Part shown: positions 1,553-15,942 of the stretch, piece after piece
Layout of the letters: each line of letters begins with the position of its first letter
Numbering within the stretch: the stretch's first letter is position 1
DNA from: Actinomycetota bacterium
GTDB lineage: Bacteria; Actinomycetota; UBA4738; HRBIN12
Assembly (NCBI GenBank): GCA_046723385.1
Contig: JBKOUM010000124.1
Location: 1-39,924, forward strand
Length of the DNA stretch: 39,924 nt
Direction of reading: 5' to 3'
Translations under genes and position numbers: made by a program
Notes under the pieces: model-generated
Told to the model about the DNA's origin: nothing
Seen by the model: the letters and a program-made list of their open reading frames with translations, nothing else
Database searches by the model: none

Positions 1553-1811
1553 CCGCGAGGACCCTATCCCAGGGGCCTGATCGTGCGCGACGGTCTCCGC
1601 AACGAAGGCTTCCTGAGATGCCCCAGGCGGGAACCGTACGAACGGGACGAAAGCTGCCGGAGACGTCCGTGCAGGTGTGGAAGGGACATACTTGAGCCGA
1701 CCGAAGTCCACCGACGTGCGTGCGTCCCTTCGGCCCCACCAAGAGACGAGCGATGAGTTCCTCCCTTCGCCGAGGTCTCACCCTTCGACCGGTCGAGGAA
1801 GGAGGACCGTG

Positions 1812-2985: not shown

Positions 2986-3345
2986 GTGGCCACGGTGCTC
3001 CTCGTCGACGACGATCCGGCGATCCTCCGGCTGCTGGAGGTGAACTTCCGGCTGGAAGGCTTCGACACCCTCACCGCCGCCCGTGGCCCCGAGGCGATCG
3101 CCCTCGCGGCGCGCGTCCCCGATGCGATCGTCCTGGATCTGATGCTCCCGGAGATGGACGGCCACCAGGTCTACCGCAAGCTGCGGGAAGACCCGGCGCT
3201 CCGGGCGATCCCCGTGACCTTCCTGACGGCGCGCGCCCTCGACACCACGCCGATCGACCCGGGGGTGCGATACGTCACGAAGCCCTTCGACACCGCGGCG
3301 TTGATCGAGACGGTCCGCGCCTCGATCGCGGGGGGCGAGGCGTGA
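2986..3345 (+). CDS. Single-domain (CheY-like) response regulator
   Basis: VLLVDDD, phosphoacceptor Asp in IVLDLMLP, FLTA and KPF all present, with no output domain. GTG 2986 chosen because TATGCT lies 7 nt upstream (the ORF track starts at 2974). Confidence 0.88.
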   Translation: MATVLLVDDDPAILRLLEVNFRLEGFDTLTAARGPEAIALAARVPDAIVLDLMLPEMDGHQVYRKLREDPALRAIPVTFLTARALDTTPIDPGVRYVTKPFDTAALIETVRASIAGGEA

Positions 3346-5024
3346 TCGAGGACGACCTCCGTGCCTGGTTCCGTTCGGGTCTGGAGGCCGCCGCCCCCGG
3401 TCTGGGGCTGGACGGCGATCTTCCCGACCCCGAGGTGATGGAGCCTCGGCAGAAGGAGCACGGCGACTTCGCGACGAACGTCGCGCTCGCGGTGGCGGGT
3501 CGGCTCGGCGCGCCGCCCCGGCGCGTCGCGGAGACGATCGCCGCGGCGCTCCCCGAGGCGTCGTTCGTCCGATCCGTCGAGGTCGCCGGTCCCGGCTTCA
3601 TCAACGTCTTCCTCACCGAGGGGTGGCTCTACGACGTCCTGCGAAGGATCGCCGAAGAAGGCGAGCGGTTCGGGACCGCGCCCCGGAACGGGCAGCGGCT
3701 CCAGGTCGAGTTCGTGAGCGCGAATCCGACGGGTCCCCTGCACGTGGGGCACGCGCGCAACGCGGTCCTGGGCGACGCGATCGCGCGACTCCTGGACGCG
3801 GCCGGCTCCGACGTGGAGCGCGAGTACTACTACAACGACGCGGGCGGCCAGATGGACCGCTTCGGCGCGTCGGTCGACGCTGCGTACCTGACCCACCTCG
3901 GAAGACCGACGGCGATCCCGGAGGACGGCTACCACGGGGCGTACATCGATGACCTGGGGCGCGAGCTGGCCGGATCGTCGCCGGAGTGGGCCGAGGGATC
4001 GGACGACGAACGGTTCTCGGCGGTCCGGCACGCGGCCGCCGAGCAGGTCTTGGGCTGGATCGATGGAACCCTCGCGAGGTTCAACGTCCGCTTCGACTCC
4101 TACGTGTCGGAGGCCGAGCTGGCCGAGGCAGGCGAGATCGAAGAAGCGATCCGCCGTTTGCGCGAGGCCGGGGTCGCCTACGACGAGGAGGGTGCGGTGT
4201 GGTTCCGCTCGACGGCGTTCGGGGACGACAAGGATCGCGTCCTCGTGCGGTCGAACGGCCGGCACACGTACTTCGGCGCCGACTGCGCGTACCTGATCCA
4301 CAAGTTCAACCGCGGCTTCGATCGGGCGATCTACGTCTGGGGGGCCGACCACCACGGCGACATCGCGCGCGTGCGCGGCGCCGTCCAAGCCCTCGGGTAC
4401 GACCCGACCGCGGTCGAGTTCGTGATCTACCAATGGGTGTCGTTCCTCCGCGCGGGCGAGCCCGTGCCCATGAGCAAGCGCGCCGGAACCTTCGTCTCGC
4501 TCGACGAGCTGATCGACGAGGTCGGGACCGACGCCGCTCGGTTCCACCTGCTGCTGTTCGGGAACGACCACTCGATGCGGTTCGACATCGACGCGGTCAA
4601 GCGGCAGTCGATGGAGAACCCCGTCTACTACGTCCAGTACGGACATGCCCGCATCGCCTCGATCCTGCGCAGGGCGGAGGAGGCAGGGATCACGATGCGA
4701 CCGATCGCCGAGGTGGATCTGGGCTCACTGGTCGATCCCGCCGAGGTGGACCTGCTGAAGGCGCTCGCCGACATCCCGGCCACGATCGCGAAGGCGGCGG
4801 AGCTCCGCGCCCCCCACCGGGTCGCCCACGCCTCCCAGGACGTGGCGGCGCGCTTCCATCGCTTCTACACCGACTGCCGCGTCGTCTCCGACGACGCCGA
4901 GCTCACGCAGGCGCGCCTGTGGCTCTGCCGCGGGTCGAAGGCCGTGCTCGCGAACCTCCTCGCGCTCGTCGGGGTCTCGGCGCCGGAACGGATGGACCGC
5001 GACGATGGCTCGGAGCCCGCGTGA
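3342..5024 (+). CDS. argS: Arginine--tRNA ligase
   Basis: VEFVSANPTGPLHVGHAR (HIGH), GADHHG, MSKRAG (KMSK-like), YYVQYGHARI. Confidence 0.97.
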   Translation: MIEDDLRAWFRSGLEAAAPGLGLDGDLPDPEVMEPRQKEHGDFATNVALAVAGRLGAPPRRVAETIAAALPEASFVRSVEVAGPGFINVFLTEGWLYDVLRRIAEEGERFGTAPRNGQRLQVEFVSANPTGPLHVGHARNAVLGDAIARLLDAAGSDVEREYYYNDAGGQMDRFGASVDAAYLTHLGRPTAIPEDGYHGAYIDDLGRELAGSSPEWAEGSDDERFSAVRHAAAEQVLGWIDGTLARFNVRFDSYVSEAELAEAGEIEEAIRRLREAGVAYDEEGAVWFRSTAFGDDKDRVLVRSNGRHTYFGADCAYLIHKFNRGFDRAIYVWGADHHGDIARVRGAVQALGYDPTAVEFVIYQWVSFLRAGEPVPMSKRAGTFVSLDELIDEVGTDAARFHLLLFGNDHSMRFDIDAVKRQSMENPVYYVQYGHARIASILRRAEEAGITMRPIAEVDLGSLVDPAEVDLLKALADIPATIAKAAELRAPHRVAHASQDVAARFHRFYTDCRVVSDDAELTQARLWLCRGSKAVLANLLALVGVSAPERMDRDDGSEPA

Positions 5025-6310
5025 CGGCCCCCGAGGTTCGGATCGGGATGCTCGGGTGCGGGACCGTCGGGAGTGCGGTCGCGCGGATGCTCTCCGAGCA
5101 CGCTGACGATATCGAGCGTCGCGCGGGCGTCCGGTTGCGCGTCTCCCGCGTGGCCGTCCGGGACCCTGGGCGCGAACGGGACGTGCCCCTGCCTGCGGAT
5201 GCGTTCACGAGCGACGGTGCGTCGGTCGCGGTCGACCCCCACATCGACGTCGTCCTGGAGCTGCTGGGGGGGCTCGAACCGGCTCGGGCCTTGCTGCTGC
5301 GGGCGCTCGGGGCGGGGAAGCCCGTGGTCACGGCGAACAAGGAGCTCCTCGCCGCAGCCGGGAAGCAGCTGTTCGAGACCGCCGACTCGGCAGGCCGCGA
5401 CCTCCGGTTCGAAGCTGCGGTCGCCGGGGGGATCCCGCTGATCGCTCCGTTGAAGGAATCGCTCGCCGGCGAGCGCATCGAGCGCGTGCTCGGGATCGTG
5501 AACGGAACGACGAACTACGTCCTGACGCAGATGTCCGACCGCGGCTCGACGTTCGACGAAGCGCTGGCGGACGCCCAGCGGCTCGGGTACGCGGAGGCCG
5601 ACCCGACCGCTGACATCGACGGGTTCGACGCCGCCGCCAAGTGCGCGATCCTCGCGTCGATCGCGTTCGACACCCGCGTCGTGGGCGACGACGTGTACCG
5701 GGAGGGGATCGCCGGCGTGACGCCGCAGGACATCGCCGACGCGACCAGGCTGGGGTACGTCGTGAAGCTGCTCGCGATCGCGGAGCTGGAGGACGGTGAG
5801 GTCTCCGCCCGGGTCCATCCGGCGATGATCCCGGCGTCCCACCCGCTGGCGTCGGTGCGCGACGCGTTCAACGCGGTGTTCGTCGAGGGCGCCAGGGTCG
5901 GGCAGCTGATGTTCTACGGCCGGGGCGCGGGCGGCGACCCGACCGCCGCGAGTGTCGTCGGCGACCTGGTCGCCGTCGCCCGGAACGTCGCCTTCGGCGG
6001 CCGAGCGATCGGCTGCACGTGCGCGCTCGACCGGCCGATCCGTTCGATGGATCACACGACCGGTCAGTACTACCTCAACCTCGACGTCGAGGATCGCCCC
6101 GGCGTCCTGGCGGAGATCGCCGAGGCGTTCGGCCGCAACGGCGTCTCGATCGAGCGGGTGTGGCAGGAGGGCTTCGGTGAGGAGGCCACGCTCGTGTTCA
6201 TCACCCACCGGGCACGCGAGGGAGCGTTCCAGGACGCCGTCGCCGAGCTCCGCGGGCTCCCGAGCGTCCGCGCGGTCGCGAGCATGCTCCGCGTCGAGGG
6301 GGAGGAATGA
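5021..6310 (+). CDS. hom: Homoserine dehydrogenase with C-terminal ACT domain
   Basis: GTG 5021 overlaps the argS stop. Motifs [37 protein letters not shown], and ACT motif DRPGVLA. Confidence 0.96.
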
Positions 6311-7374
6311 CGGAGCCGGCCCGTCCCCATCAGTGGCGGGGCATCATCGAGGAATACCGGGCGCGACTGCCCGTTTCGGCCGGCACACCGATCGTCACGC
6401 TCCGCGAAGGGGGGACCCCGCTCGTCCGCTCCGATCCGATGTCGCTCGAGACGGGATGTGAGGTCTGGCTCAAGTACGACGGCGCCAACCCCACCGGGTC
6501 GTTCAAGGACCGAGGCATGACGCTCGCGATCTCGAAGGCGATGGAGGAGCACGCGAAGGCCGTCGTCTGCGCGTCGACCGGCAACACGAGTGCGTCCGCC
6601 GCCGCGTACGCCGCGAAGGCCGGGATGACCTGTGCGGTGCTCGTCCCCAAGGGGAAGGTCGCGCTGGGCAAGATGGCCGCGACGCTCGTCCACGGAGCGA
6701 AGATGCTCGAGGTCAACGGCAACTTCGACGCATCGCTCGACGTCGCCCGAGACCTGGCGGACCGATACCCCGTCACGCTCGTGAACAGCGTCAACCCGTT
6801 CCGCCTCGAGGGCCAGAAGACCGCGGCGTTCGAGGTCTGCGACGCGCTCGGGCGAGCGCCGGACGTTCACTGCGTCCCGGTCGGCAACGCGGGGAACATC
6901 TCGAGCCACTGGATGGGCTACTCGGACTACCTGCGGGACGGCGCGATCGCCGAACCACCCCAGCTCTTCGGGTTCCAGGCAGCGGGTGCCGCACCGATCG
7001 TCCGGGGGGCACCGGTCGCGGACCCGCAGACGATCGCGACCGCGATCCGGATCGGCAACCCCGCGTCGTGGGAGAAGGCGACGGCCGCCGCGACCGCGTC
7101 CGAAGGGGCGATCGAGGCGGTCACCGACCGGCAGATCCTGGCCGCGTATCGGCGCGTTGCCCGCGAGGGTCTGTTCGTCGAACCTGCGAGCGCCGCGAGC
7201 GTCGCCGGCATGTTGCAGCTCCACGCCGAAGGTCGCCTGCCCGCCGGGAGCACCGTGGTCTGCATCCTGACCGGCCACGGCCTCAAGGACACGGAGTGGG
7301 CGATCGCCGGCGCCGCGCACCCGACGACGGTCGCCGCCGACGCCGGGGCGGTGGCGGCGGCACTCGGTCTGTAG
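6307..7374 (+). CDS. thrC: Threonine synthase
   Basis: [10 protein letters not shown] (PLP lysine), [31 protein letters not shown]. Confidence 0.97.
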
Positions 7375-7399
7375 CGCCCGCGATACGCTCCGCGCCACC

Positions 7400-8278
7400 A
7401 TGCGCGTCACCGTTCGCGTCCCCGCGACCGCCGCCAACCTCGGACCGGGGTTCGACAGCTTCGGTCTCGCGCTCGACCTCTGCAACGAGGTGAGCGTGGA
7501 CACGTCCGGTCCCGCAGGGATCGTCTGGGAAGGCGAGGGCGCCTCCGAGCTCCCGGTGGACGGATCCGATCTGATCGGGCGGGTGATGGCGGCCGTCGCC
7601 GGGCGGATGTCGCTCCCGATCGCCCCGCACCACCGGTTCGCGCGGAACCGGATCCCCCTCGCTCGTGGCCTCGGCTCGTCCTCGGCCGCGACGGTCGCGG
7701 GCATCGTCCTGACCTCGGTGATGCTCGACCTGGGCATCCACCACGACCCGACCTCCGTCTTCGCGATCGCGTCCGAGATCGAGGGGCATCCCGACAACGC
7801 GGCCGCCGCGTCCTTCGGCGGATTCACGATCGCCCTCCCGGAGGGAGGTGTTCACCGGCTCGACCCACACCCCGACCTCCGTCCCGTGATGTTCGTCCCG
7901 GACGTGCGCGTCTCGACGAGCGAGGCGCGCGTCGGGCTGCCCGACCCGGTGCCGCGCGCGGCGGCGGTGTCGAACATCGCCCACGCCGCGCTCACCGTGC
8001 AGGCGCTTTCGCGCGATCCGTCGCTGCTGCCCGTGGCGCTCGTCGACCGGCTGCACGAGGACGTCCGGCTCGCGGCCGTCCCTGAGGTGGCCGCGGTGGC
8101 CGACGAGCTCCGTCGGTCGCACGTCCCGGTCTGCCTCTCGGGCTCGGGGCCTTCCCTCCTGGCGTTCGAGCGCGACGACCGGCCCCCGCTCAGCCTCGAG
8201 TCGGCCGCCGCCCCTCCGTCGTGGCGGATCCTTCGCCCGGGCGTCCGTTCGCGAGGGTTCGAGGTGGCGGGGGCGTGA
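7400..8278 (+). CDS. thrB: Homoserine kinase
   Basis: VPAT.ANLGPGFD, IPLARGLGSSSA (GHMP motif), EGHPDN, LSGSGPS. Confidence 0.96.
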   Translation: MRVTVRVPATAANLGPGFDSFGLALDLCNEVSVDTSGPAGIVWEGEGASELPVDGSDLIGRVMAAVAGRMSLPIAPHHRFARNRIPLARGLGSSSAATVAGIVLTSVMLDLGIHHDPTSVFAIASEIEGHPDNAAAASFGGFTIALPEGGVHRLDPHPDLRPVMFVPDVRVSTSEARVGLPDPVPRAAAVSNIAHAALTVQALSRDPSLLPVALVDRLHEDVRLAAVPEVAAVADELRRSHVPVCLSGSGPSLLAFERDDRPPLSLESAAAPPSWRILRPGVRSRGFEVAGA

Positions 8279-8314
8279 ACGGACGAACGCCGGCGGCTCG
8301 GTAGGGTGAGGACC

Positions 8315-9109
8315 GTGGCCACGATCGCCCACATCTCCGACCCGCACGTCGGGTCTCCGCATTTCGTCCCGAACCTGATGAACCGCGTGATCTCCGAGCT
8401 GAACGAGCTCAGCCCCGACGTCGTCGTCGTCTCGGGCGACCTGACGACCGACGGGTTCCGACCTGAATACAAGGCCTGGCTCGCGTACGCCGACCGGATC
8501 GAGGCGCCGCTCCTCACCGTCCCGGGCAACCACGACTCACGGAACGTCGGATACCTCCACTTCGAGGATCTGATCGGCCCGCGGATGTGGGCCAAGGACG
8601 CGGGGGACGTCCGCATCGTCGGCGTGGACTCGAGCGAACCCGACCTGAACGAAGGCCAGGTCGGCCGCGTCCACTACGACTGGATCAGCGATCAGTTCGC
8701 CGGTCCGGCGGCGCTGAAGGTCTTCGTCCTGCACCACCACCTGCTCCCCATCCCCGGCACCGGCCGGGAGCGATCGACCGTGATGGACGCTGGGGACCTG
8801 CTCGAGGTGCTCGTCCACGCGGGCGTCCACGTCGTGCTGTCGGGCCACAAGCACGTGCCGTACGTCTGGCGGATCGAGGACCTCTACATCGCGAACGCCG
8901 GGACCGTGTCGTCGCTGCGGCTGCGCGGATACGGCAAGCCGTGCTACAACGTCCTCGAGTTCGACGGGGACGAGGTCTCGATCTACCGCGTGTTCCCGTT
9001 CGAAGGTGAGCGGCACCTGATGGCCCGGTTCGTGCTGTTCGAGGCCGCTCGGCATCATCGCGAGGCACCCGTCCAGCAGGTGGCGGCGACGCCCGAAACA
9101 GCCCAGTAG
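8315..9109 (+). CDS. Calcineurin-like metallophosphoesterase (CpdA/Icc-like); candidate cDPG hydrolase
   Basis: All five metal motifs present: ISDPH, SGDLT, GNHD, LHHH, GHKH. Start GTG 8315 lies 7 nt after TAGGGT (8302-8307); the ORF track starts at 8306. Confidence 0.9.
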   Translation: MATIAHISDPHVGSPHFVPNLMNRVISELNELSPDVVVVSGDLTTDGFRPEYKAWLAYADRIEAPLLTVPGNHDSRNVGYLHFEDLIGPRMWAKDAGDVRIVGVDSSEPDLNEGQVGRVHYDWISDQFAGPAALKVFVLHHHLLPIPGTGRERSTVMDAGDLLEVLVHAGVHVVLSGHKHVPYVWRIEDLYIANAGTVSSLRLRGYGKPCYNVLEFDGDEVSIYRVFPFEGERHLMARFVLFEAARHHREAPVQQVAATPETAQ

Positions 9110-9158
9110 GGACCTTCCGCCGCCCCCGGGCGCGAGAGAGAGGCAGAGGGCACACCGG

Positions 9159-10523
9159 ATGCGTGCGATCGTCCTCGTCGACGGCGAGCACTCCGTGCCG
9201 GTCACTCGGTGGGCGCTCGACATCGCGCGCGCCCGAGGGATCGAGGTCGTCGGGGGCCTGCTCGTCGGCGGCATCGAGAAGCTGCCGGCGGGCCGCCTGC
9301 CCGATCTGGGGATCCCGCTTCGAACGGCCCCGGAAGACCGGGGGGAGGCATTGCGTGCGGCGATCCTGGGATGGCGCCCCGACCTGATCCTCGACGTCTC
9401 CGACGAACCGGTGCTGGGGTACCGCGAGCGGATGGAGATCGCCTCGACCGCCCTCGCGATGGGCGTGCCGTACGAGGGGGCGGACTTCCGGTTGGACCCG
9501 CCGCCGGCGGACCCGCCGCCGGCGGGGATCCCGACGCTCGCGGTCTTCGGGACCGGCAAGCGGACGGGCAAGACGGCGATCGCGGGCGAGCTGGCGCGGC
9601 GGGCGGCCCGCCGCGACCTCTCGCCGATCGTGATCGCGATGGGTCGCGGCGGCCCGCCGACCCCGCAGGTCGCCGACGCCGGATCGGTGACCCTCGACGG
9701 CCTCCTCGCGATCGTCCAGGCGGGGGAGCACGCCGCCTCGGACTACCTGGAGGACGCCCTGACGACCGGGGTGACCACGATCGGGGCCCGGCGTGCCGGC
9801 GGCGGGCTCGCCGGCGCGCCGTTCGCGACGAACGTGTCGGAGGCCGTCGCGCTGGCGGCAGCGCGACGCCCCGGCCTCCTGCTCCTGGAAGGCAGCGGAT
9901 CGGCCCTCCCGACCGTCGCGTGGGACGCGGGGGTCCTCGTCGTCCCCGGCTCTTGCCCGCCGGAGTACGTCGCAGGGTATCTGGGTGCCTATCGGCTGTT
10001 GCGAGCCGACCTCGCGGTTGTTACCATGGCTGCGAGCCCGGTTCCCGGGTCCGAGAACCTCTCCCACCTCACCGCACACCTCCGTCGTGCATTGGGCGAT
10101 GCGCGGGTCCTGGTGACCGACTTCATCCCGGTGCCCCTCGCAGATGTGCGAGGTCGAGATGCGTTCTTCGCAACGACGGCTCCGAGCCTCGTCGCCACCC
10201 GCCAGGTGGCGCACCTCGAAGAGGCTTCCGGGGTTCGGATCGTGGCGTGGAGCGCGCGGCTCGCCGATCGGGCGGGCCTGGCGGAGGACCTGGAGGCCGC
10301 GCCCAGCTACGACGTGCTCCTCACGGAACTGAAGGCGGCGGCGGTCGATGTGGCCAGTCAGCACGCGGTGGAACGAGGCGTGGACGTCGTGTTCGTCGAC
10401 AACCGCGCGGTGATGCTCGAGGGGGCGACCGATCTCGAGGTGGCGTTCGCGGACGTGATCGAGCTCGCGATCGCCCGCGGATCGACCCGGGGCGGGGCTC
10501 CGGTCGGAAGGAACGAAGGTTGA
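9159..10523 (+). CDS. cpgS: Cyclic 2,3-diphosphoglycerate synthetase
   Basis: 454 aa. Family motifs VDGEH, DVSDEPVLGYRER, YEGADF, GTGKRTGKTA (P-loop-like), AMGRGGP, HAASDYLEDA, EGSG, TELKAAAVD. Adjacent to 2-phosphoglycerate kinase. Confidence 0.88.
   Translation: MRAIVLVDGEHSVPVTRWALDIARARGIEVVGGLLVGGIEKLPAGRLPDLGIPLRTAPEDRGEALRAAILGWRPDLILDVSDEPVLGYRERMEIASTALAMGVPYEGADFRLDPPPADPPPAGIPTLAVFGTGKRTGKTAIAGELARRAARRDLSPIVIAMGRGGPPTPQVADAGSVTLDGLLAIVQAGEHAASDYLEDALTTGVTTIGARRAGGGLAGAPFATNVSEAVALAAARRPGLLLLEGSGSALPTVAWDAGVLVVPGSCPPEYVAGYLGAYRLLRADLAVVTMAASPVPGSENLSHLTAHLRRALGDARVLVTDFIPVPLADVRGRDAFFATTAPSLVATRQVAHLEEASGVRIVAWSARLADRAGLAEDLEAAPSYDVLLTELKAAAVDVASQHAVERGVDVVFVDNRAVMLEGATDLEVAFADVIELAIARGSTRGGAPVGRNEG
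9999..10027 (+). promoter_or_regulatory. Putative internal sigma-A promoter inside cpgS (TTGCGA-17 nt-TACCAT, extended -10 TGn)
   Basis: TTGCGA at 9999-10004, 17-nt spacer ending TGT, TACCAT at 10022-10027. Local codons (TAT, TTG CGA, GTT GTT, GCT) depart from the G/C-ending codons used elsewhere. Confidence 0.5.
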
Positions 10524-11536
10524 CGGAACGCACGAGGACCGCCCAGATCGTGATCTCGGATCGCGAGCCGGGCCTGCCGTTCTCGAAGGGCTTGCTCGCG
10601 TCCCAGGTCATGGTGACGGGGCTCTCTCCCTACCGCTCCTACCAGGTGGCGGAGGAGGTCGAGATCCGGTTGCTCGAGCGGCGGCGGGCGTCGGTCACGT
10701 CGGCCGAACTCGCGGAGGTCGCGCTCGAGGTGATCGGTCAGCTCGCCGGCGACCGATACGCCACCAACTACGTCCGGTGGCGGCAGATCGAGGAGCTCGA
10801 CGTCCCGCTCGTGATCTTGATCGGGGGTGCGACGGGCGTCGGGAAATCGACGATCGCCACGCAGCTCGCGGCGCGGCTCGGGATCGTCCGGGTCGTCGCC
10901 ACGGACGCGATCCGCGAGGTCATGCGGGCGATGCTGTCGGCCGAGCTGATGCCGACCCTTCACGTGTCGTCGTTCCAAGCGGACAAGGCGCTGCGTGAGC
11001 CGCCGACCAAGACGGCCGACGCGTTGACGCTGGGGTTCCGCGAGCAGACCGCGGCGGTCTCGGTCGGGATCAACGCGTTGATCGAGCGCGCGGCTGAGGA
11101 GGGGACGAGCATCGTGATCGAGGGCGCACACGTGGTCCCGGGATTCTTCGAGACCGATGTGCACGCGGCTCGGATCCTCGCGGTTCCGTTCGTCGTCGGC
11201 GTCGACGACGAGGAACGCCATCGGTCGCACTTCGCCGCCCGCGAAGACGCGATCGCCGATCGTCCGGCCGCGCGGTACGAGGAAGGGTTCGAGGGCATCC
11301 GCAGGCTCCAGCGCTACATCAAGAGCCAGGCCCTCGCCCACGGGGTCCCGGTGATCCCCAACTACAGCTTCGACCAGTCGATCGCCGCGGTGATCGACCT
11401 GGTCATGGAACACGCGACCGATCGCGCAGGTTCTGCTCCCGCAGGTCCGTCCGCCGCGAGCACGGGCGACGGGCACGGGGACCCACGACAGACAGAAGGC
11501 CCCAGAGAGGGCCAGAGAGAAGGAATAACGGCATGA
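10520..11536 (+). CDS. pgk2: 2-phosphoglycerate kinase (archaeal type, ATP-cone-like N-terminus plus P-loop kinase)
   Basis: TTG 10520 overlaps the cpgS TGA, with purine-rich GGAAGGAACGAAGG upstream. Motifs LPFSKGLLA, LIGGATGVGKST, TDAIREVMR, PTLHVSS, SIVIEGAHVVPG. Confidence 0.88.
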   Translation: MTERTRTAQIVISDREPGLPFSKGLLASQVMVTGLSPYRSYQVAEEVEIRLLERRRASVTSAELAEVALEVIGQLAGDRYATNYVRWRQIEELDVPLVILIGGATGVGKSTIATQLAARLGIVRVVATDAIREVMRAMLSAELMPTLHVSSFQADKALREPPTKTADALTLGFREQTAAVSVGINALIERAAEEGTSIVIEGAHVVPGFFETDVHAARILAVPFVVGVDDEERHRSHFAAREDAIADRPAARYEEGFEGIRRLQRYIKSQALAHGVPVIPNYSFDQSIAAVIDLVMEHATDRAGSAPAGPSAASTGDGHGDPRQTEGPREGQREGITA

Positions 11537-12201
11537 AGCTCTTCCTCGACACGGCAAGCATCGACGAGATCCGCGAGATCAACCGCTGGGGTGTCCTCGG
11601 GGGCGTGACCACGAACCCGTCGCTCCTGGAGAAGGAAAGCTCCGACCCCGCCAAGGTCTGGCGGCAGATCCTGGATGAGGTCTCCGGTGACGTGTCCCTC
11701 GAGGTCACCGCCCCGGACGCCGATGAGATGGTGACGCAGGGCACCGCCCTCGCGCAGATGGGACCCAACGCGATCGTCAAGGTCCCGATGACACCGGACG
11801 GACTCGAGGCCGGAACCCGGCTCGTTGCTCAGGGGATCAGGATCAACGTGACCCTCGTCTTCTCACCGGCGCAAGCCATCCTGGCCGCGGAGGCCGGGGC
11901 GTACATCGTGTCGCCGTTCCTGGGGCGCGTGGACGACGTGGCGAGCGACGGGATGGCGGTATTGCGTTCGATCTGCGATATCTATGCTGTCCAGGGCTAC
12001 GACACCAAGGTCCTGGCCGCATCGCTCCGACACCCGATGCACGTGGTGGAGTCGGCGCTCGCTGGGGCCGATATCGCCACGATGCCGTACGACGTCTTCA
12101 CGAAGCTCGTGAAGCACCCGCTCACGGATCTCGGCATGGAACGGTTCCAGGCCGACTGGCAGAAACTCCAGCACCTGCTGGAGGGAGAGGCATCCAACTG
12201 A
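11533..12201 (+). CDS. tal: Transaldolase (small TalC/FSA-like family)
   Basis: FLDTA, GVTTNPSL and Schiff-base Lys in VKVP. Glu in SLEV and Phe in SPFLGR are the transaldolase rather than FSA signatures. Confidence 0.9.
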   Translation: MKLFLDTASIDEIREINRWGVLGGVTTNPSLLEKESSDPAKVWRQILDEVSGDVSLEVTAPDADEMVTQGTALAQMGPNAIVKVPMTPDGLEAGTRLVAQGIRINVTLVFSPAQAILAAEAGAYIVSPFLGRVDDVASDGMAVLRSICDIYAVQGYDTKVLAASLRHPMHVVESALAGADIATMPYDVFTKLVKHPLTDLGMERFQADWQKLQHLLEGEASN

Positions 12202-13820
12202 TGGATACGACGATGGAGCGCAGCGACCTGGAAGCGAAGCTGCTGCCTGAGCTGCAACAGATCGCCCAGACGCTCGGCGTAGAGGGAACGCAGAAGCTTC
12301 GGAAGGCGGGGCTGATCGACGCGATCGTGTCCGCCTCCGGGAACGGCGAACGGCCGTCGACACGCAACGGCGAGGACGCCGGCGGTCAGGCGACCACGAC
12401 CACGACGGCCGATGAGGAGCCGCGGCGCGACCGCGGTGGCCAGGCCGTCGAGGGAAGGGACGATCGCGAACGCGGCGGCGAGGCCGACGAGCGACGGGAC
12501 GACCGTGACCGCGGGGAGCCGCGCCGGAACGACCGCAACGACCGGCCCGCCGGACAGGGCGGCCAGCGCCCGGCGGGACAGGGCTTGAGCGACGGCGGCG
12601 AACGCGACCGGCGGCGACGCCCGTCCCGCGAGGAGCGCCGCCGGTCGCGCGAGGAGCGTCGGGTCCGCGACGAGCAGGATCGCGTGGAGGAGCTGAAGAC
12701 CGCCCCGACACGCACAGGCATCCTGGACGTCCTGCCCGAGGGCTACGGCTTCCTCCGGTGCTCGGGCTACCTGCCCGGGTCGGACGACGTCTACGTGTCG
12801 CTCTCGTACGTCCGCCGGCACCAGCTCCGGAAGGGCGACACGGTGATGGGCAAGATCCGGGAGCCCAAGAACAACGAGAAATACCCGGCGCTGCTGTCGG
12901 TGGAGTCCGTGAACGACATGGATCCCGAGAAGGCGGCCGGGCGGCCGGTCTTCGACAAGCTGACGCCGCTGTTCCCGAACGAGCGGTTCCGGCTCGAGAG
13001 CGGTCCGACGGCGATCGCCGAGCGGATCGTCGACATGGTCGCCCCGATCGGCAAGGGGCAGCGCGGCATGATCGTGGCGCCACCCAAGTCCGGGAAGACG
13101 ACGATCCTGAAGCAGATCGCGAACGGGATCATCCACTCCAATCCCGAGACGCACGTGATCGTGCTCCTCGTGGACGAGCGGCCCGAGGAGGTCACCGACT
13201 GGCAGCGGACGGTCGAGGCGGCCGAGGTGGTGTACTCGACCTTCGACAAGCCGACCGACCAGCACATCCAGGTGACCGAGCTCGTGCTGGAGCGCGCGAA
13301 GCGGATGGCGGAGACCGGCGGGGACGTCGCGATCATCCTCGATTCGCTGACGCGGCTCACGCGCGCCTACAACCTGGGGATGCCGGCGTCCGGCAAGATC
13401 CTCACGGGCGGCATCGACGCCTCGGCGCTGTACCCGCCTCGTCGCTTCTTCGGAGCGGCGCGGAACATCGAGGAGGGCGGTTCGCTCACGATCATCGCCT
13501 CGGCGCTCGTAGAGACCGGCTCCCGGATGGACGACGGGATCTTCGAGGAGTTCAAGGCGACGGGGAACATGGAGCTGCGTCTTGACCGGCAGCTCGCCGA
13601 GAAGCGGTTGTTCCCGGCGATCAACGTCGACCCTTCGGGCACGCGCAAGGAGGAGCTCCTGCTCCCGCCCGAGGAGCTCGCGCTCGTGATCCGGCTCCGG
13701 CGGGTGCTCCACGCCCTGGAACCCGGCGCCGCGCTCGAGCTGCTGATCGACAAGCTCCGGTCGACCAAGTCGAACGAGCAGTTCCTGAAGGACATCGCGA
13801 AGGCACCGACCGGGAGCTGA
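12201..13820 (+). CDS. rho: Transcription termination factor Rho with R/D/E/G-rich N-terminal insertion
   Basis: GYGFLR, LTPLFP, PIGKGQRG, PPKSGKT, DERPEEVT, FEEFKATGNMEL, SGTRKEELL. Confidence 0.98.
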   Translation: MDTTMERSDLEAKLLPELQQIAQTLGVEGTQKLRKAGLIDAIVSASGNGERPSTRNGEDAGGQATTTTTADEEPRRDRGGQAVEGRDDRERGGEADERRDDRDRGEPRRNDRNDRPAGQGGQRPAGQGLSDGGERDRRRRPSREERRRSREERRVRDEQDRVEELKTAPTRTGILDVLPEGYGFLRCSGYLPGSDDVYVSLSYVRRHQLRKGDTVMGKIREPKNNEKYPALLSVESVNDMDPEKAAGRPVFDKLTPLFPNERFRLESGPTAIAERIVDMVAPIGKGQRGMIVAPPKSGKTTILKQIANGIIHSNPETHVIVLLVDERPEEVTDWQRTVEAAEVVYSTFDKPTDQHIQVTELVLERAKRMAETGGDVAIILDSLTRLTRAYNLGMPASGKILTGGIDASALYPPRRFFGAARNIEEGGSLTIIASALVETGSRMDDGIFEEFKATGNMELRLDRQLAEKRLFPAINVDPSGTRKEELLLPPEELALVIRLRRVLHALEPGAALELLIDKLRSTKSNEQFLKDIAKAPTGS

Positions 13821-13888
13821 TCCGGGCGGAATAGGCGGGCGTTGAAGGGGATAGCATCCGGGACACGCTCGAAGGAGACATGACGACC

Positions 13889-14119
13889 ATGAAGCAAGGC
13901 ATCCATCCCGACTACCAGATCGCGAACGTCCACTGCTCGTGCGGCAACACGTTCCAGACGCGCTCGACCGTCAGCGAGATCCGCTCCGACATCTGCTCCA
14001 ACTGTCACCCCTTCTACACGGGGAAGCAGAAGCTCGTGGACACGGGTGGACGAGTGGAGCGGTTCCAGCGTCGGTACGCCAAGACGCAGCAGGCCCAGCA
14101 GGCCGCGAAGCAGGGCTGA
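13889..14119 (+). CDS. rpmE: 50S ribosomal protein L31 (zinc-binding C+ form)
   Basis: [12 protein letters not shown]...[22 protein letters not shown] spacing favours ATG 13889 over 13880. Confidence 0.97.
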
Positions 14120-14126
14120 CCAGCCG

Positions 14127-15029
14127 GTGGGCCAGCAGCCCGCGGCCGCGAACCACCTGTACGGGGGTCAGGCCGTCGTCGAGGGCGTGATGATGCGCGG
14201 CGCCGACCATTGGGCGGTCGCCGTTCGTGAGCCCGCGGGCTCCGTGTACGTCGAGTCCCACGCGATCGAGTCGATCGCCGACCGGCACCCGATCTGGCGC
14301 AAGCCGTTCCTCCGAGGGATCCTCGTCCTCGGTCAGTCCCTGTCGATCGGCGTGCGAGCCCTGCTGATCGCGACGAACCACGCCGTCGAGGAGGAGCAGC
14401 AGCTCACGCGCCGCCAGATCGGCGTCTCGCTCACCGTGGCGATGATCCTGTTCATCGCCGTGTTCATCCTCGGACCGACCGCCCTGTTCACCTGGGCGGA
14501 GCACCGGACGGACGCGAACGGGATCGTGGCGAACGTCGCCGAGGGCCTGTTCCGTGTGGCGCTGTTCGTCGGCTACCTCTGGTTGATCGGCCGGACCAAG
14601 GACATCCGGAGGGTGTTCGCGTACCACGGCGCGGAGCACAAGACGATCGCCGCCTACGAACACGAGGACGAGCTCACGCCGGATCGGATCGATCGGTACC
14701 CGAAGGAGCACGTGCGCTGCGGCACGAACTTCCTGATCATCGTGATGATCATCACGATCTTCGTGTTCGCGTTGTTCGGGACCCCCGGGCTGCTCTGGCG
14801 GCTGGTCTCCCGGCTCATCGCGATCCCGGTGATCGCCGGCGTGGCGTACGAGGCGCTCCGCCTGGGCGCGCGGTTCCCGCGATCCGTGGTGATGCGCGCG
14901 CTGATGGCGCCCGGGATCTGGCTGCAGAAGATCACCACGCGGGAGCCGGACGCCGGCCAGATCGAGGTGGCCGTGACCTCCTTCAGGGAGGTCCTGCGTC
15001 GCGAGGCCGAGGCCGCGGGTACCGCCTGA
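14127..15029 (+). CDS. DUF1385 (YqhQ-like) membrane protein
   Basis: YGGQAVVEGVMMRG, FAYHGAEHKTI, HVRCGTNF, LQKITTREP. The family is commonly found between rpmE and prfA/prmC. Confidence 0.9.
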   Translation: MGQQPAAANHLYGGQAVVEGVMMRGADHWAVAVREPAGSVYVESHAIESIADRHPIWRKPFLRGILVLGQSLSIGVRALLIATNHAVEEEQQLTRRQIGVSLTVAMILFIAVFILGPTALFTWAEHRTDANGIVANVAEGLFRVALFVGYLWLIGRTKDIRRVFAYHGAEHKTIAAYEHEDELTPDRIDRYPKEHVRCGTNFLIIVMIITIFVFALFGTPGLLWRLVSRLIAIPVIAGVAYEALRLGARFPRSVVMRALMAPGIWLQKITTREPDAGQIEVAVTSFREVLRREAEAAGTA

Positions 15030-15168: not shown

Positions 15169-15942
15169 ATGACGAGCAACATGAAGAACGACCTCGACCT
15201 GCCGTTGCTCCCCAGTGCCGAGCAGATCCGGCGGAGGGAGTTCGCCACGGTCCGGCGCGGCTACGACCCCGACCAGGTGCGGGAATACCTCCAAGGGGTC
15301 GCCGGCCAGGTCGAGACGCTGGAACGTGAACTCCGGGAGCGGCGGAAAACGACGCCGCCTCCGTCGCCGGGCGACGCTCCCTCTTCCGAAGCCGCCCCGG
15401 CGGCCTCGTCCCCGGACGCAGCGATCGCGACACCCTCCCCGGACGCGTACGAGGAGATCGCGAAACGGTTCGCCGGCCTCCTCGAGACGGCTGACAAGGA
15501 GGCGACCGCGGCGGTCGCCACGGCCAAGGCCGAAGCGACCCGGATCGTCGAGGAGGCGCGCTCCGAGGCCGACCGGATCCAGCTCGACGCGCAGTCCAAA
15601 GCGGAGGCCGCCAAGCAAGAGAGCAGCGACACGCTCGCGAACGCCAAGCGCGAGGCGGACACGATCCTCGGTTCGCTGGCGGAGCGCCGCGAGAGCCTCG
15701 TCTCGCAGATGCACGACATGCAGACCAGACTTCTGTCGGTGGCCAAGGACCTCGAGACGTCGCTGGGAGACGCGCCGGAGGGGGCTGGCCAGCACGCCGT
15801 CGAGAGCACCCCGGCCGACGACGACGCGGTCGATCCCCGGTACGAAGACATGTGGGCACTGCCCAAGGGCAAGCACATGGTCGACATCCCCAACCTGGCT
15901 TCCTTGGACGTCGACTTCGAGGACGAGCGCCCCTCCGAGTAG
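15169..15942 (+). CDS. DivIVA domain-containing coiled-coil protein
   Basis: IRRREFATVRRGYDPDQVREYL is the DivIVA N-terminal motif (I...F....RGY...EV..FL). It is followed by a Pro/Ala linker, an A/E/K-rich coiled coil and an acidic tail. Confidence 0.85.
   Translation: MTSNMKNDLDLPLLPSAEQIRRREFATVRRGYDPDQVREYLQGVAGQVETLERELRERRKTTPPPSPGDAPSSEAAPAASSPDAAIATPSPDAYEEIAKRFAGLLETADKEATAAVATAKAEATRIVEEARSEADRIQLDAQSKAEAAKQESSDTLANAKREADTILGSLAERRESLVSQMHDMQTRLLSVAKDLETSLGDAPEGAGQHAVESTPADDDAVDPRYEDMWALPKGKHMVDIPNLASLDVDFEDERPSE

What the first reader, a model, noticed from the sequence alone, without database searches (positions are those of the whole stretch)
8315..11536. Complete archaeal-type cyclic 2,3-diphosphoglycerate (cDPG) pathway in an actinobacterial core locus
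Seen: adjacent, overlapping (TTGA at 10520-10523) genes carry cDPG synthetase motifs (DGEH, GTGKRTGKTA, AMGRGGP, HAASD) and 2-phosphoglycerate kinase motifs (PFSKG, GGATGVGKST, TD.IREVMR). Known: 2PGK then cDPGS make cDPG from 2-phosphoglycerate, a compatible solute or thermoprotectant studied mainly in methanogenic and hyperthermophilic archaea. I recall annotated homologues in a few bacteria such as Rubrobacter, but no demonstration of cDPG accumulation in this kind of actinobacterium. Inference: this organism makes cDPG as an osmolyte, stress protectant or phosphate/energy store. Codon style matches the host and no mobility genes flank the module, which suggests an old, domesticated acquisition.
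Basis: partly seen in the sequence, partly recalled or inferred. Interest (0 to 1): 0.85.

Follow-up and report, generated by a model that had tools for sequence, protein, structure and literature searches.

The report
cDPG pathway gene trio in Actinomycetota
A soil actinobacterium carries, among housekeeping genes, intact relatives of the two archaeal enzymes that make the heat-protectant cyclic 2,3-diphosphoglycerate, plus a tightly linked phosphoesterase; this trio is common in the phylum, although the compound itself has only been reported from heat-loving archaea.

Summary
Window 9159-10523 encodes a 454-aa protein that aligns end to end with the crystallised Methanothermus fervidus cDPG synthetase (E 5e-83). 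It keeps 10 of the 11 ligand-contact residues that could be mapped. Window 10520-11536 (TTG start inside TTGA) encodes a 338-aa 2-phosphoglycerate kinase homologue (NF003259, 297 bits, below NCBI's 343-bit cut-off).

The three genes sit between hom-thrC-thrB and fsa-rho.

They are not rare. In an even sample of 301 genomes of the phylum, cDPGS, 2PGK and this esterase were found in 176, 175 and 174; 173 hold cDPGS with 2PGK and 173 hold cDPGS with the esterase. 2PGK follows cDPGS in 115 of 120 loci, and the esterase precedes it in 91 of 115. Thermococcus loci carry the same three genes in a different order.

Public pipelines already name these proteins. I found no paper on bacterial cDPG.

Best reading: an old, vertically inherited cDPG synthesis module, with the esterase as its likely hydrolytic arm. 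The product is unproven, and an archaeal origin is not shown.

The parts
8306..9109 (+). Metallophosphoesterase (MPE), 267 aa, GpdQ/Rv0805-like. Proposed hydrolytic arm of the module (cDPG or 2,3-DPG hydrolase).
   Evidence: PF00149 71.4 bits. Nearest solved structures are GpdQ 2zo9/2dxl (E 6e-10) and Rv0805. The DxH, GD, GNHD, HHH and GHxH motifs, plus R79, the TGRER loop (G153, E155, R156), R207 and Y214, are invariant in 33 orthologues, including Thermococcus-type ones. It lies directly upstream of cDPGS in 91 of 115 loci. Same phyletic pattern as cDPGS: 174 against 176 of 301 genomes, 173 shared. 40% identical to the MPE next to cDPGS-2PGK in a Thermococcus-type locus.
9159..10523 (+). [quoted passage not shown]
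   Evidence: E 5e-83 and 282 bits to M. fervidus cDPGS 8ork/8oru over residues 3-438; 1.1e-80 to 9sxb. Equivalents of E45, K46, K145, R146, K149, T150, D208, T353, E404 and K406 are kept. 39% identical to the Thermococcus-type enzyme. Single copy in the genome.
10520..11536 (+). 2-phosphoglycerate kinase (2PGK) homologue, 338 aa; its TTG start overlaps the cDPGS stop (TTGA)
   Evidence: NF003259 296.9 bits, E 1.7e-88, profile positions 3-294 of 306, below the 343-bit cut-off. 36% identical to the Thermococcus-type 2PGK. Directly downstream of cDPGS in 115 of 120 loci. Found in 175 of 301 genomes, 173 shared with cDPGS.
11533..12201 (+). Fructose-6-phosphate aldolase / short transaldolase (FSA/TalC type). 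Neighbour, probably housekeeping and not part of the module.
   Evidence: TIGR00875 265.7 bits, above the cut-off of 245.95. Its ATG lies in an ATGA overlap with the 2PGK stop (coordinates). Downstream within 2 kb in 88 of 109 loci. It is retained next to rho in locus L209, where the trio is missing.
7400..8278 (+). Homoserine kinase thrB (upstream flank, with thrC 6307-7374 and hom about 5021-6310)
   Evidence: TIGR00191 192.5 bits, thrC TIGR00260 299.2 bits; Homoserine_dh 225.7 bits.
12201..13820 (+). Transcription termination factor Rho (downstream flank)
   Evidence: TIGR00767 600.5 bits.

Best explanation
The window carries a working three-gene phosphoglycerate module.
- 2PGK phosphorylates 2-phosphoglycerate to 2,3-diphosphoglycerate (2,3-DPG).
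- cDPGS uses ATP to close the two phosphates into the cyclic pyrophosphate cDPG.
- The upstream binuclear metallophosphoesterase most likely opens the ring again, or dephosphorylates 2,3-DPG. The cell could then both build and draw down the pool.

The module is ancient in Actinomycetota, inherited vertically, and sits between thrB and fsa-rho. Because its carriers are soil and other non-thermophilic lineages, the likely role is a phosphate, energy and carbon reserve or a general stress protectant, not heat protection.

Shown: homology, residue conservation, gene order and co-occurrence. Inferred: the reactions, the product pool, the esterase's substrate and the physiological role.
For: 1. cDPGS. 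End-to-end match to the enzyme whose activity and structure are published (PMC10690619, abstract and section 8 read). Of the 12 residues that paper names at the 2,3-DPG, Mg and ADP sites, 10 are identical in the window protein. These 10 are invariant or nearly so in 52 diverse family members.
2. 2PGK. Its best family is 2PGK, 297 bits against 75 for the nearest differently named kinase. Translational coupling to cDPGS through TTGA.
3. Linkage. 2PGK follows cDPGS in 115 of 120 loci, and MPE precedes it in 91 of 115.
4. Co-occurrence in one sample of 301 genomes of the phylum: cDPGS 176, 2PGK 175, MPE 174. Comparing the listings by eye, 173 hold cDPGS and 2PGK, and 173 hold cDPGS and MPE. Families without an adjacent MPE (f9, f16) or an adjacent 2PGK (f19) still hold one elsewhere.
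5. A second lineage with a different gene order. Loci whose proteins sit in clusters named Thermococcus litoralis and T. sibiricus read cDPGS-2PGK-CBS-MPE. Identities to the window proteins are 39%, 36% and 40%. Their cDPGS is the type crystallised as 9sxb (798.8 bits).
6. The MPE subfamily keeps all metal-binding motifs plus several invariant arginines. That fits a polyanionic substrate (inference).
7. cDPG-hydrolysing activities are described in M. thermautotrophicus in a review, which names no gene for them (PMC1224877, passages).
8. Joint loss. In genus g25 (genomes of 1.3-1.6 Mb), none of the three was found in 3 of 3 genomes. In one of them the hom-thrC-thrB and fsa-rho flanks remain.
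9. Weak hint of expression. Contigs from three soil RNA libraries lie on cDPGS, 2PGK and fsa at 95-97% likeness. DNA carry-over is not excluded.
Against: - No metabolite or enzyme data exist for any bacterium in the library searched. The M. fervidus structure paper states in its abstract that cDPG is found exclusively in hyperthermophilic methanogens.
- 2PGK scores below NCBI's equivalog cut-off (296.9 against 343). The same model also rings in Thermus, Deinococcus, Haloferax and Sulfolobus control genomes. 2PGK occurs in mesophilic methanogens that lack cDPGS (PMC2686161, passage). A 2PGK-like fold alone therefore does not prove this reaction.
- E305 of the M. fervidus enzyme, an adenosine contact, is replaced in the window protein. 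It is also missing in the Thermococcus type.
- A distant sister family, ArcE arginine synthetase, shows that this fold can do other chemistry (PMC11032458, passages).
- The MPE's substrate is pure inference. Its nearest solved relatives are a promiscuous glycerophosphodiesterase and a cyclic-nucleotide phosphodiesterase.
- The co-occurrence counts come from related genomes and follow whole families, so the number of independent events is small and unknown. Where the genes are adjacent, joint absence can be one deletion or one assembly gap (G122 and G084 also lack rho).
- In 6 metagenome loci 2PGK lies upstream of cDPGS with no MPE hit. In others cDPGS stands alone within about 6 kb.
Confidence: 0.6

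Rival explanations
1. Same fold, different chemistry. The bacterial 'cDPGS' and '2PGK' have drifted to another phosphorylated substrate or another ATP-dependent ligation, as ArcE arginine synthetase did. The database names would then be over-annotation.
For: ArcE is a homologue of cDPGS with a wholly different reaction and is widespread in bacteria (PMC11032458). 2PGK scores below the curated cut-off, and 2PGK-like genes ring in organisms not known to make cDPG. E305 is not kept. No biochemical data exist for any bacterial member.
Against: The paper describes ArcE-cDPGS similarity as 'low', while the window protein scores 282 bits end to end against true cDPGS. All residues that touch 2,3-DPG (E45, K145, R146, K149) and Mg (T150, D208) are kept. 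The neighbour is a 2PGK homologue, not arcB or arcC. The same pairing occurs in Thermococcus-type loci whose cDPGS was crystallised under that name.
Confidence: 0.2
2. The pair makes 2,3-DPG or cDPG, but the phosphoesterase is an unrelated neighbour, for example a cyclic-nucleotide or glycerophosphodiester phosphodiesterase. It would travel with the locus for historical reasons only.
For: The nearest solved relatives are GpdQ and Rv0805, and NCBIfam gives only weak CpdA/SpdA-type hits. MPE is not adjacent in 24 of 115 loci. It is absent from the flanks of 6 loci with the order 2PGK-cDPGS, and from solitary cDPGS loci. Co-occurrence among kin overstates linkage.
Against: The orthologue at E<=1e-25 was found in only 1 of the 125 sampled genomes without cDPGS, and was missed in 3 of the 176 with it. 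It is kept elsewhere in the genome in families where it is not adjacent (f9, f16). It is clustered with cDPGS-2PGK in a different order in Thermococcus-type loci with no thrB or rho nearby.
Confidence: 0.15
3. Recent horizontal acquisition from archaea: an 'archaeal-type' island domesticated in this lineage.
For: The only characterised members are archaeal. Archaeal and bacterial rows are intermixed in the family tree.
Against: The same position between thrB and rho recurs across more than 25 family-level groups of the phylum. GC3 equals that of the neighbours. The window sits in a 99%-supported clade of 23 Actinomycetota and 7 unnamed rows with no archaeal member. A tree with all 36 actinobacterial rows held together is not worse (p-AU 0.54). 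An ancient transfer in either direction is not excluded.
Confidence: 0.05

Closest known systems
Methanothermus fervidus cDPG synthetase (PDB 8ORK apo, 8ORU with ADP/Mg/2,3-DPG; De Rose et al. 2023, PMC10690619)
   Same: Same length class (454 against 460 aa) and alignable from residue 3 to 438. Same P-loop with K and R inside it. The 2,3-DPG, Mg and phosphate contacts are kept. The N-terminal domain that supplies E45/K46 to the partner subunit is present.
   Different: About 40% identity only. E305 is replaced. The host is a high-GC soil actinobacterium, not a hyperthermophilic methanogen. Here the gene is translationally coupled to 2PGK and preceded by an MPE. Activity is untested.
Thermococcus-type cDPGS cluster (9SXB-like enzyme; loci L194 and L205; P. 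yayanosii PYCH_14390-400 in PMC4890121)
   Same: cDPGS immediately followed by 2PGK with a 4-nt overlap, and an MPE of the same subfamily in the same cluster. The adjacent pair is reported as stress-regulated in P. yayanosii (passage).
   Different: The order is cDPGS-2PGK-CBS-MPE rather than MPE-cDPGS-2PGK. The MPE is a 506-aa tandem whose second half has degenerate motifs. The 2PGK carries a detectable ATP-cone. There are no thr or rho neighbours. No metabolite data were seen for Thermococcus either.
2-phosphoglycerate kinase of M. fervidus (Lehmacher & Hensel 1994, cited; NCBIfam NF003259)
   Same: Near full-length match to the family profile (positions 3-294 of 306), Walker A GxxGxGKS and the TDxIREVMR block.
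   Different: Scores 46 bits under the curated equivalog cut-off. Pfam sees only generic AAA_33 in the window protein. The paper itself was not read.
ArcE arginine synthetase (T. kodakarensis TK2200; PMC11032458)
   Same: Distantly related P-loop fold. Also widespread in bacteria, and long mis-annotated or left unannotated (passages).
   Different: Its reaction is citrulline + ATP + NH3 <-> arginine + ADP + Pi, and its neighbours are arcB and arcC. The window gene has a 2PGK neighbour and the DPG-binding residues. No ArcE sequence was available here for a direct comparison.
GpdQ (Enterobacter aerogenes glycerophosphodiesterase, 2ZO9/2DXL) and Rv0805 (M. tuberculosis phosphodiesterase): nearest solved MPEs
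   Same: Binuclear metallophosphoesterase core with all five motifs.
   Different: Only E 6e-10 to 2e-9 over about 180 residues. The window subfamily has its own invariant R79, TGRER loop, R207 and Y214, and is genomically tied to cDPGS.
cDPG hydrolase activities of Methanothermobacter thermautotrophicus (review PMC1224877 citing van Alebeek 1994 and Sastry 1992)
   Same: They provide the reaction that the MPE is proposed to catalyse, cDPG -> 2,3-DPG (passage).
   Different: The review names no gene for these activities, and one of them is membrane-bound. The window MPE shows no obvious signal or membrane segment (by eye). I could not test whether methanogens hold this MPE subfamily.

Membership tests
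cDPG synthetase (cDPGS) | End-to-end sequence homology to the biochemically and structurally characterised M. fervidus enzyme | tested here: met
   E 5e-83, 282 bits, query 3-438 against chain 7-453 of 460.
cDPG synthetase (cDPGS) | Walker A/P-loop GxxGxGK[T/S] that also carries the substrate-contacting K145 and R146 | tested here: met
   GTGKRTGKTA at 131-140. K134 and R135 are invariant, K138 and T139 nearly invariant, in 52 members.
cDPG synthetase (cDPGS) | Other residues named at the 2,3-DPG, Mg and ADP sites: E45, K46 (from the partner subunit), D208, T353, E404, K406 | tested here: met
   Window E40, K41, D195, T340, E390 and K392 align to them. P335 of the paper could not be mapped (chain index 335 is F); the flanking prolines are kept.
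cDPG synthetase (cDPGS) | E305 (adenosine/ribose contact) | tested here: not met
   M. fervidus TMCEEP aligns to window TMAASP. It is also missing in the Thermococcus-type enzyme, so it is probably not family-defining.
cDPG synthetase (cDPGS) | Membership of the Pfam model for the family (PF27272) | tested here: inconclusive
   The local Pfam and NCBIfam copies gave 0 hits. PF27272.1 is the precomputed label on all 120 listed homologues, including one 95% identical.
cDPG synthetase (cDPGS) | Catalysis: 2,3-DPG + ATP -> cDPG + ADP + Pi | not testable with these tools
   Needs an enzyme assay.
2-phosphoglycerate kinase (2PGK) | Score over the curated equivalog cut-off of NCBIfam NF003259 | tested here: not met
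   296.9 bits against a cut-off of 343.
2-phosphoglycerate kinase (2PGK) | 2PGK is the best-scoring named family, ahead of related small-molecule kinases | tested here: met
   NF003259 296.9 and NF008994 287.6 bits, against mevalonate-3-phosphate 5-kinase NF008996 at 75.3.
2-phosphoglycerate kinase (2PGK) | N-terminal ATP-cone-like domain followed by a P-loop kinase domain | tested here: inconclusive
   Pfam finds only AAA_33 and similar from residue 94 on in the window protein. ATP-cone is detected in the Thermococcus-type 2PGK and is precomputed on some close relatives. The N-terminal 90 residues align to the profile.
2-phosphoglycerate kinase (2PGK) | Genomic and phyletic coupling to cDPGS | tested here: met
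   TTGA overlap. Adjacent in 115 of 120 loci. 173 genomes hold both, out of 176 and 175.
2-phosphoglycerate kinase (2PGK) | Catalysis: 2-PG + ATP -> 2,3-DPG + ADP | not testable with these tools
   Needs an enzyme assay.
Calcineurin-like metallophosphoesterase superfamily | Pfam PF00149 over the gathering score, and the five metal-binding motifs | tested here: met
   71.4 bits against 21.5. D12/H14, G44/D45, G74-D77, H143-H145 and G180/H181/H183 are invariant in 33 orthologues.
cDPG hydrolase (an activity with no gene named in the review read) | Hydrolysis of cDPG to 2,3-DPG | not testable with these tools
   Only gene linkage and co-occurrence support it.
ArcE arginine synthetase (considered) | Neighbourhood or co-occurrence with arcB (OTC) and arcC (carbamate kinase) | tested here: not met
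   The neighbours are thrB, MPE, 2PGK, fsa and rho. A direct sequence comparison with ArcE was not possible.
Fructose-6-phosphate aldolase / TalC-type transaldolase | TIGR00875 over its cut-off | tested here: met
   265.7 bits against 245.95.

The most novel reading that the evidence does not exclude
MPE, cDPGS and 2PGK together form a complete make-and-break cycle for cyclic 2,3-diphosphoglycerate, and the cycle is ancestral to a large part of Actinomycetota. On this reading cDPG is not a curiosity of hyperthermophilic methanogens. It would be a common phosphate and energy store or stress solute of mesophilic soil and water bacteria. The TGRER-loop metallophosphoesterase would be the gene for the cDPG hydrolase activity that the review read here reports without naming a gene.
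Probability: 0.33. Interest if true: 0.8.

Novelty: new member of a known kind. Interest (0 to 1): 0.55.

Why it matters
The papers I could read treat cDPG as an extremolyte of a few hyperthermophilic archaea and tie it to heat protection. If the trio found here is active, more than half of the sampled species of a major soil phylum could make and recycle the compound at ordinary temperatures.

That would have three consequences:
- It would change the view of what cDPG is for: phosphate and energy buffering, or desiccation and oxidative stress, rather than heat.
- It would add a large pool of mesophilic enzymes for the industrial synthesis that is now being built on the M. fervidus enzyme.
- It would give a concrete candidate gene for the cDPG hydrolase.

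The gene names themselves are already in public annotation. The value lies in the scale, the conserved core-locus position and the third gene, not in spotting the pair.

Tried and rejected
- Local Pfam and NCBIfam libraries gave no family for the cDPGS. The Pfam label PF27272 is known only from precomputed columns.
- A 52-sequence alignment (A1) was too diverse for a locus scan. A 13-sequence one (A2) worked, but its best 80 loci were all actinobacterial, so no named archaeal genome loci were obtained.
- A metagenome scan with the single M. fervidus-like protein P0147 found nothing. The permitted second scan, with alignment A3, gave 80 loci.
- The ArcE comparison could not be made.
- I could not test whether methanogens that accumulate cDPG hold the MPE subfamily. 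The Atlas look-alikes (clusters of 246-503 aa, 'commonest Methanobacteriota') and the generic 'metallophosphoesterase' labels are leads only.
- The promoter and terminator scan of 5000-14500 found no promoter-like site. It found two terminator-like sites, both on the minus strand, no more than in shuffles. It gives no information on operon boundaries.
- Absence of the trio in G122 and G084 is rejected as evidence, because rho was not found there either. The locus is probably unassembled.
- RNA-library contigs. Parts of the stretch without cover are not interpreted, and depth is not used. One 179-nt contig of X20 spans the 2PGK/fsa junction, but a contig across two genes does not show a single transcript.
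- Sequencing-run shares of 0.19-0.36 in soil metagenomes. Only X1 was laid among the DNA runs. It holds pieces with no differences, but it may be the source sample, so 'soil' rests on run labels only.
- No structure or complex prediction was run. A 40%-identical solved structure already exists for cDPGS, and I make no claim of physical binding.
Matussek et al. 1998 (PMC107676) is not held.
- Supplements are closed. SI Figs S10-S11 of PMC11032458 (ArcE distribution and tree with cDPGS as outgroup), which I could not see, may bear on the bacterial range of cDPGS homologues.
- That bacterial cDPG is not in print rests on the searches only.

Unpublished genomes:
- The tallies include genomes flagged as unpublished.
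- In the phylum sample these are G029, G164, G180, G208, G240, G275, G300, G324, G370, G381 and G404.
- Without those 11, the counts are 165, 165 and 163 of 290.
- Locus L004 (G017, unpublished) is among the 125 loci counted.

Duplicates:
- Some loci are the same place fetched twice through different tools (for example L002/L047, L013/L081, L015/L095, L022/L110).
- The counts are therefore of loci, not of species.

Full report
WHAT IS THERE

On the + strand the window reads:
- argS (3342-5024)
- hom (about 5021-6310)
- thrC (6307-7374)
- thrB (7400-8278)
- a 267-aa metallophosphoesterase, MPE (8306-9109)
- a 454-aa cDPGS homologue (9159-10523)
- a 338-aa 2PGK homologue (10520-11536)
- a TalC/FSA-type aldolase (11533-12201)
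- rho (12201-13820)
- a DUF1385 gene, a DivIVA-like gene, prfA, and further on glyA, atpA and atpD

Gaps are small: 27 nt between thrB and MPE, and 49 nt between MPE and cDPGS. cDPGS/2PGK and 2PGK/fsa overlap by 4 nt, and fsa/rho by 1 nt (coordinates). Bases 10520-10523 are TTGA, preceded by a purine-rich stretch. GC3 of the three genes (0.87-0.91) matches the neighbours.

IDENTITY OF THE TWO ENZYMES

The 454-aa protein hits only three distinct PDB sequences at E<=0.01, all deposited as cyclic 2,3-diphosphoglycerate synthetase. They are 8oru/8ork (M. fervidus; E 5e-83, residues 3-438 on 7-453 of 460) and 9sxb (1.1e-80).

The structure paper (PMC10690619; abstract, outline and section 8 read) names twelve residues at the 2,3-DPG, Mg and ADP sites: E45 and K46 of the partner subunit, K145, R146, K149, T150, D208, E305, P335, T353, E404 and K406.
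- In the alignment, ten are identical in the window protein: E40, K41, K134, R135, K138, T139, D195, T340, E390 and K392.
- The same ten are invariant or at least 90% conserved in an alignment of 52 diverse family members.
- E305 is replaced. It is also missing from the Thermococcus-type enzyme.
- P335 could not be mapped (chain index 335 is F).

The 338-aa protein's best families are NCBIfam 2-phosphoglycerate kinase NF003259 (296.9 bits, positions 3-294 of 306) and NF008994 (287.6). This is far above mevalonate-3-phosphate 5-kinase (75.3), but below NCBI's equivalog cut-off of 343. The model also rings in Thermus, Deinococcus, M. jannaschii, Haloferax and Sulfolobus control genomes, over the cut-off in one of them. 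A genomics paper notes 2PGK in mesophilic methanogens without cDPGS (PMC2686161, passage). 2PGK-likeness alone is therefore not proof of the reaction. The coupling to cDPGS carries the weight.

HOW COMMON IT IS

The gene is single-copy in the window's genome, a 2.69-Mb assembly of 225 contigs, 88.9% complete. cDPGS was found as follows:

| Sample | Genomes with cDPGS | Threshold |
|---|---|---|
| Genus and order relatives | 39 of 41 | E<=0.001 |
| Class | 145 of 151 (97 of 100 high-quality) | E<=1e-20 |
| Phylum, even sample | 176 of 301 (122 of 198 genera) | E<=1e-20 |

- Close homologues carry NCBI names such as '[Actinomycetota bacterium]'. JGI and NCBI already call them cDPG synthetase.
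- At least 7991 clusters at 90% identity, and 961 at 50% identity (226 at E<=1e-30), belong to the family.
The best 80 carry Actinomycetota-type titles (Acidimicrobiia, Euzebyaceae, Ca. Aquicultor and unclassified), apart from one labelled plain 'bacterium', one 'uncultured bacterium' and one Burkholderiales.
- Relatives also carry names from Cloacimonadota, Abyssubacteria, Poribacteria, Hydrogenedentota, Planctomycetota, Coatesbacteria, Asgard archaea, Methanobrevibacter and Thermococcus.
- The 2PGK homologues are likewise named '2-phosphoglycerate kinase' by JGI and by some NCBI records; others are named 'AAA family ATPase'.

THE THIRD GENE

I compared 125 loci from relatives with the window's proteins by tblastn. 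Some of these loci are the same place fetched twice, and one comes from an unpublished genome.
- 2PGK lies directly downstream of cDPGS in 115 of 120 loci with room.
- The MPE lies directly upstream in 91 of 115.
- fsa lies within 2 kb in 88 of 109.
- thrC/thrB and rho commonly flank the set.

In the same 301-genome draw, 2PGK was found in 175 and the MPE orthologue (E<=1e-25) in 174. I compared the complete lists of matching genomes by eye:
- 173 genomes hold cDPGS and 2PGK. cDPGS only: G036 (at a contig end), G404, G408. 2PGK only: G248, G327.
- 173 genomes hold cDPGS and MPE. cDPGS only: G181, G344, G414. MPE only: G272.

Whole families are either positive or negative for all three, for example 0 of 17, 0 of 13, 0 of 10 and 0 of 9 in f14, f15, f20 and f27. 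Families where the MPE is not adjacent (f9, f16) keep one elsewhere. Family f19, where 2PGK is not adjacent, keeps a more divergent one elsewhere. These genomes are kin, so the number of independent events is small. The pattern is suggestive, not a statistic.

INDEPENDENT SUPPORT FROM ANOTHER DOMAIN

A metagenome scan seeded with M. fervidus-like proteins gave 80 loci. Seven show the order cDPGS, 2PGK, a gap, then an MPE hit: L138, L144, L150, L151, L194 and L205 at GC 0.38-0.44, and L191 at GC 0.62.
- The cDPGS and 2PGK of L194 and L205 are exact members of clusters named Thermococcus litoralis group and T. sibiricus.
- L194 reads cDPGS (434 aa), 2PGK with an ATP-cone (299 aa, 4-nt overlap), a CBS-pair protein, and a 506-aa tandem MPE.
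- Its cDPGS scores 798.8 bits on 9sxb, so that structure is of the Thermococcus type.
- The window proteins are 39% (cDPGS), 36% (2PGK) and 40% (MPE, N-terminal half) identical to these. The second MPE half is 25% identical and has lost the DxH motif.
- The adjacent pair is reported as stress-regulated in Pyrococcus yayanosii (PMC4890121, passage).

Results against a universal trio: six loci have 2PGK upstream of cDPGS and no MPE hit, and several low-GC loci have cDPGS alone within about 6 kb.

WHAT THE MPE LOOKS LIKE

It has all five metallophosphoesterase motifs. Its nearest solved relatives are GpdQ and Rv0805 (E about 1e-9). Across 33 orthologues, including the Thermococcus-type ones, the metal ligands and also R79, G153/E155/R156 of a TGRER loop, R207 and Y214 are invariant. 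Several fixed arginines fit a highly anionic substrate; this is inference.

A review states that M. thermautotrophicus has a membrane-bound cDPG hydrolase inhibited by K+ and phosphate, and cites a study of its enzymatic degradation to 2,3-DPG. It names no gene (PMC1224877, passage). From memory, unverified: members of this superfamily cleave phosphoanhydrides as well as diesters.

LOSS

Within the window's own family, genus g25 (genomes of 1.3-1.6 Mb, 87-92% complete) gave no match for cDPGS, 2PGK or MPE in 3 of 3 genomes, while rho is present. In locus L209, hom-thrC-thrB and fsa-rho are in place, and an opposite-strand CvpA plus trypsin-like protease gene fills the gap. fsa therefore does not depend on the trio. 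The three genes are adjacent in this class, so this may be a single deletion.

ORIGIN

A quick maximum-likelihood tree of 74 rows puts the window in a 99%-supported group of 23 actinobacterial and 7 unnamed rows. No archaeal row is inside it. Other actinobacterial rows fall elsewhere on short, weakly supported branches.

With named rows only (36 Actinomycetota against 15 others, including Methanobrevibacter, Thermococcus and Asgard), a tree holding Actinomycetota together is slightly better than the free tree, with p-AU 0.54. I had already seen the first tree when I ran this test. Both trees are unrooted and have no ArcE outgroup. Together with the conserved position, this fits old vertical inheritance. 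It says nothing firm about an archaeal donor.

EXPRESSION AND HABITAT (WEAK)

Words of the stretch occur in many runs labelled soil metagenome (shares 0.19-0.36). X1 holds pieces without any difference, but it may be the source. Contigs from three RNA libraries of three studies lie on the 3' part of cDPGS (277-346 nt, 8-14 differences), on 2PGK (310 nt, 14 differences) and on fsa. One 179-nt contig crosses the 2PGK/fsa junction. They come from relatives, and DNA carry-over is not excluded.

LITERATURE

- Searches for cDPGS, 2PGK, cDPG and hydrolase terms, with and without Actinobacteria or Rubrobacter, found no paper on a bacterial cDPG pathway.
- The 2023 structure paper says in its abstract that cDPG is found exclusively in hyperthermophilic methanogens. 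The 2025 synthesis paper says 'certain hyperthermophilic methanogenic Archaea'.
- The ArcE paper uses cDPGS homologues only as an outgroup. Its supplementary figures could not be seen.

VERDICT

What is worth carrying forward is the phylum-wide, core-locus conservation in non-thermophiles, and the linked phosphoesterase as a candidate for the breakdown step.

Noticed in passing
L194:6013-10203 (also L205:5995-10186): Thermococcus-type cluster reading cDPGS, 2PGK (ATP-cone), CBS-pair protein and a 506-aa tandem metallophosphoesterase. The second half of the esterase has lost the DxH motif. A tungstate/molybdate-type ABC transporter lies upstream on the other strand.
   Followed up: partly
L209:3715-5667 (+), between fsa and thrB of genome G116: In small-genome genus g25 the MPE-cDPGS-2PGK trio is missing from its usual place. 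An opposite-strand CvpA (Colicin_V) plus trypsin-like protease gene sits there instead. The thrB match in this locus is split into two pieces in different frames (6507-6217 and 6211-5723), a possible frameshift.
   Followed up: partly
protein P0497: A 427-aa database protein carries both the 2PGK kinase domain (PF13671) and TAL_FSA (PF00923). It is either a real 2PGK-aldolase fusion or a gene call that read through the ATGA overlap.
   Followed up: no
family f19 genomes (e.g. L020, L025, L026, L040; G174, G216, G306): MPE-cDPGS are adjacent, but 2PGK is elsewhere in the genome and more divergent (E 1e-45 to 1e-54). These genomes hold 2-3 MPE-subfamily matches.
   Followed up: partly
L123: A contig whose title says Burkholderiales carries a cDPGS 46% identical to the window's, with thrC upstream and 2PGK downstream as in Acidimicrobiia-type loci. 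It is possibly a mis-binned or mislabelled contig.
   Followed up: no
window 14046-15029 and 15169-15942: A DUF1385 protein (265.6 bits) and a protein with only a short DivIVA N-terminal match lie between rho and prfA. No function is assigned.
   Followed up: no
window 887-1711 (-): A 274-aa ORF with host-like GC3 (0.87) and no Pfam family at E<=1e-4.
   Followed up: no
L128, L129, L130, L132, L159, L176: Metagenome loci (GC 0.56-0.65) of unknown taxon where 2PGK lies upstream of cDPGS and no MPE hit is seen in the flanks. This is a third arrangement of the pathway genes.
   Followed up: no
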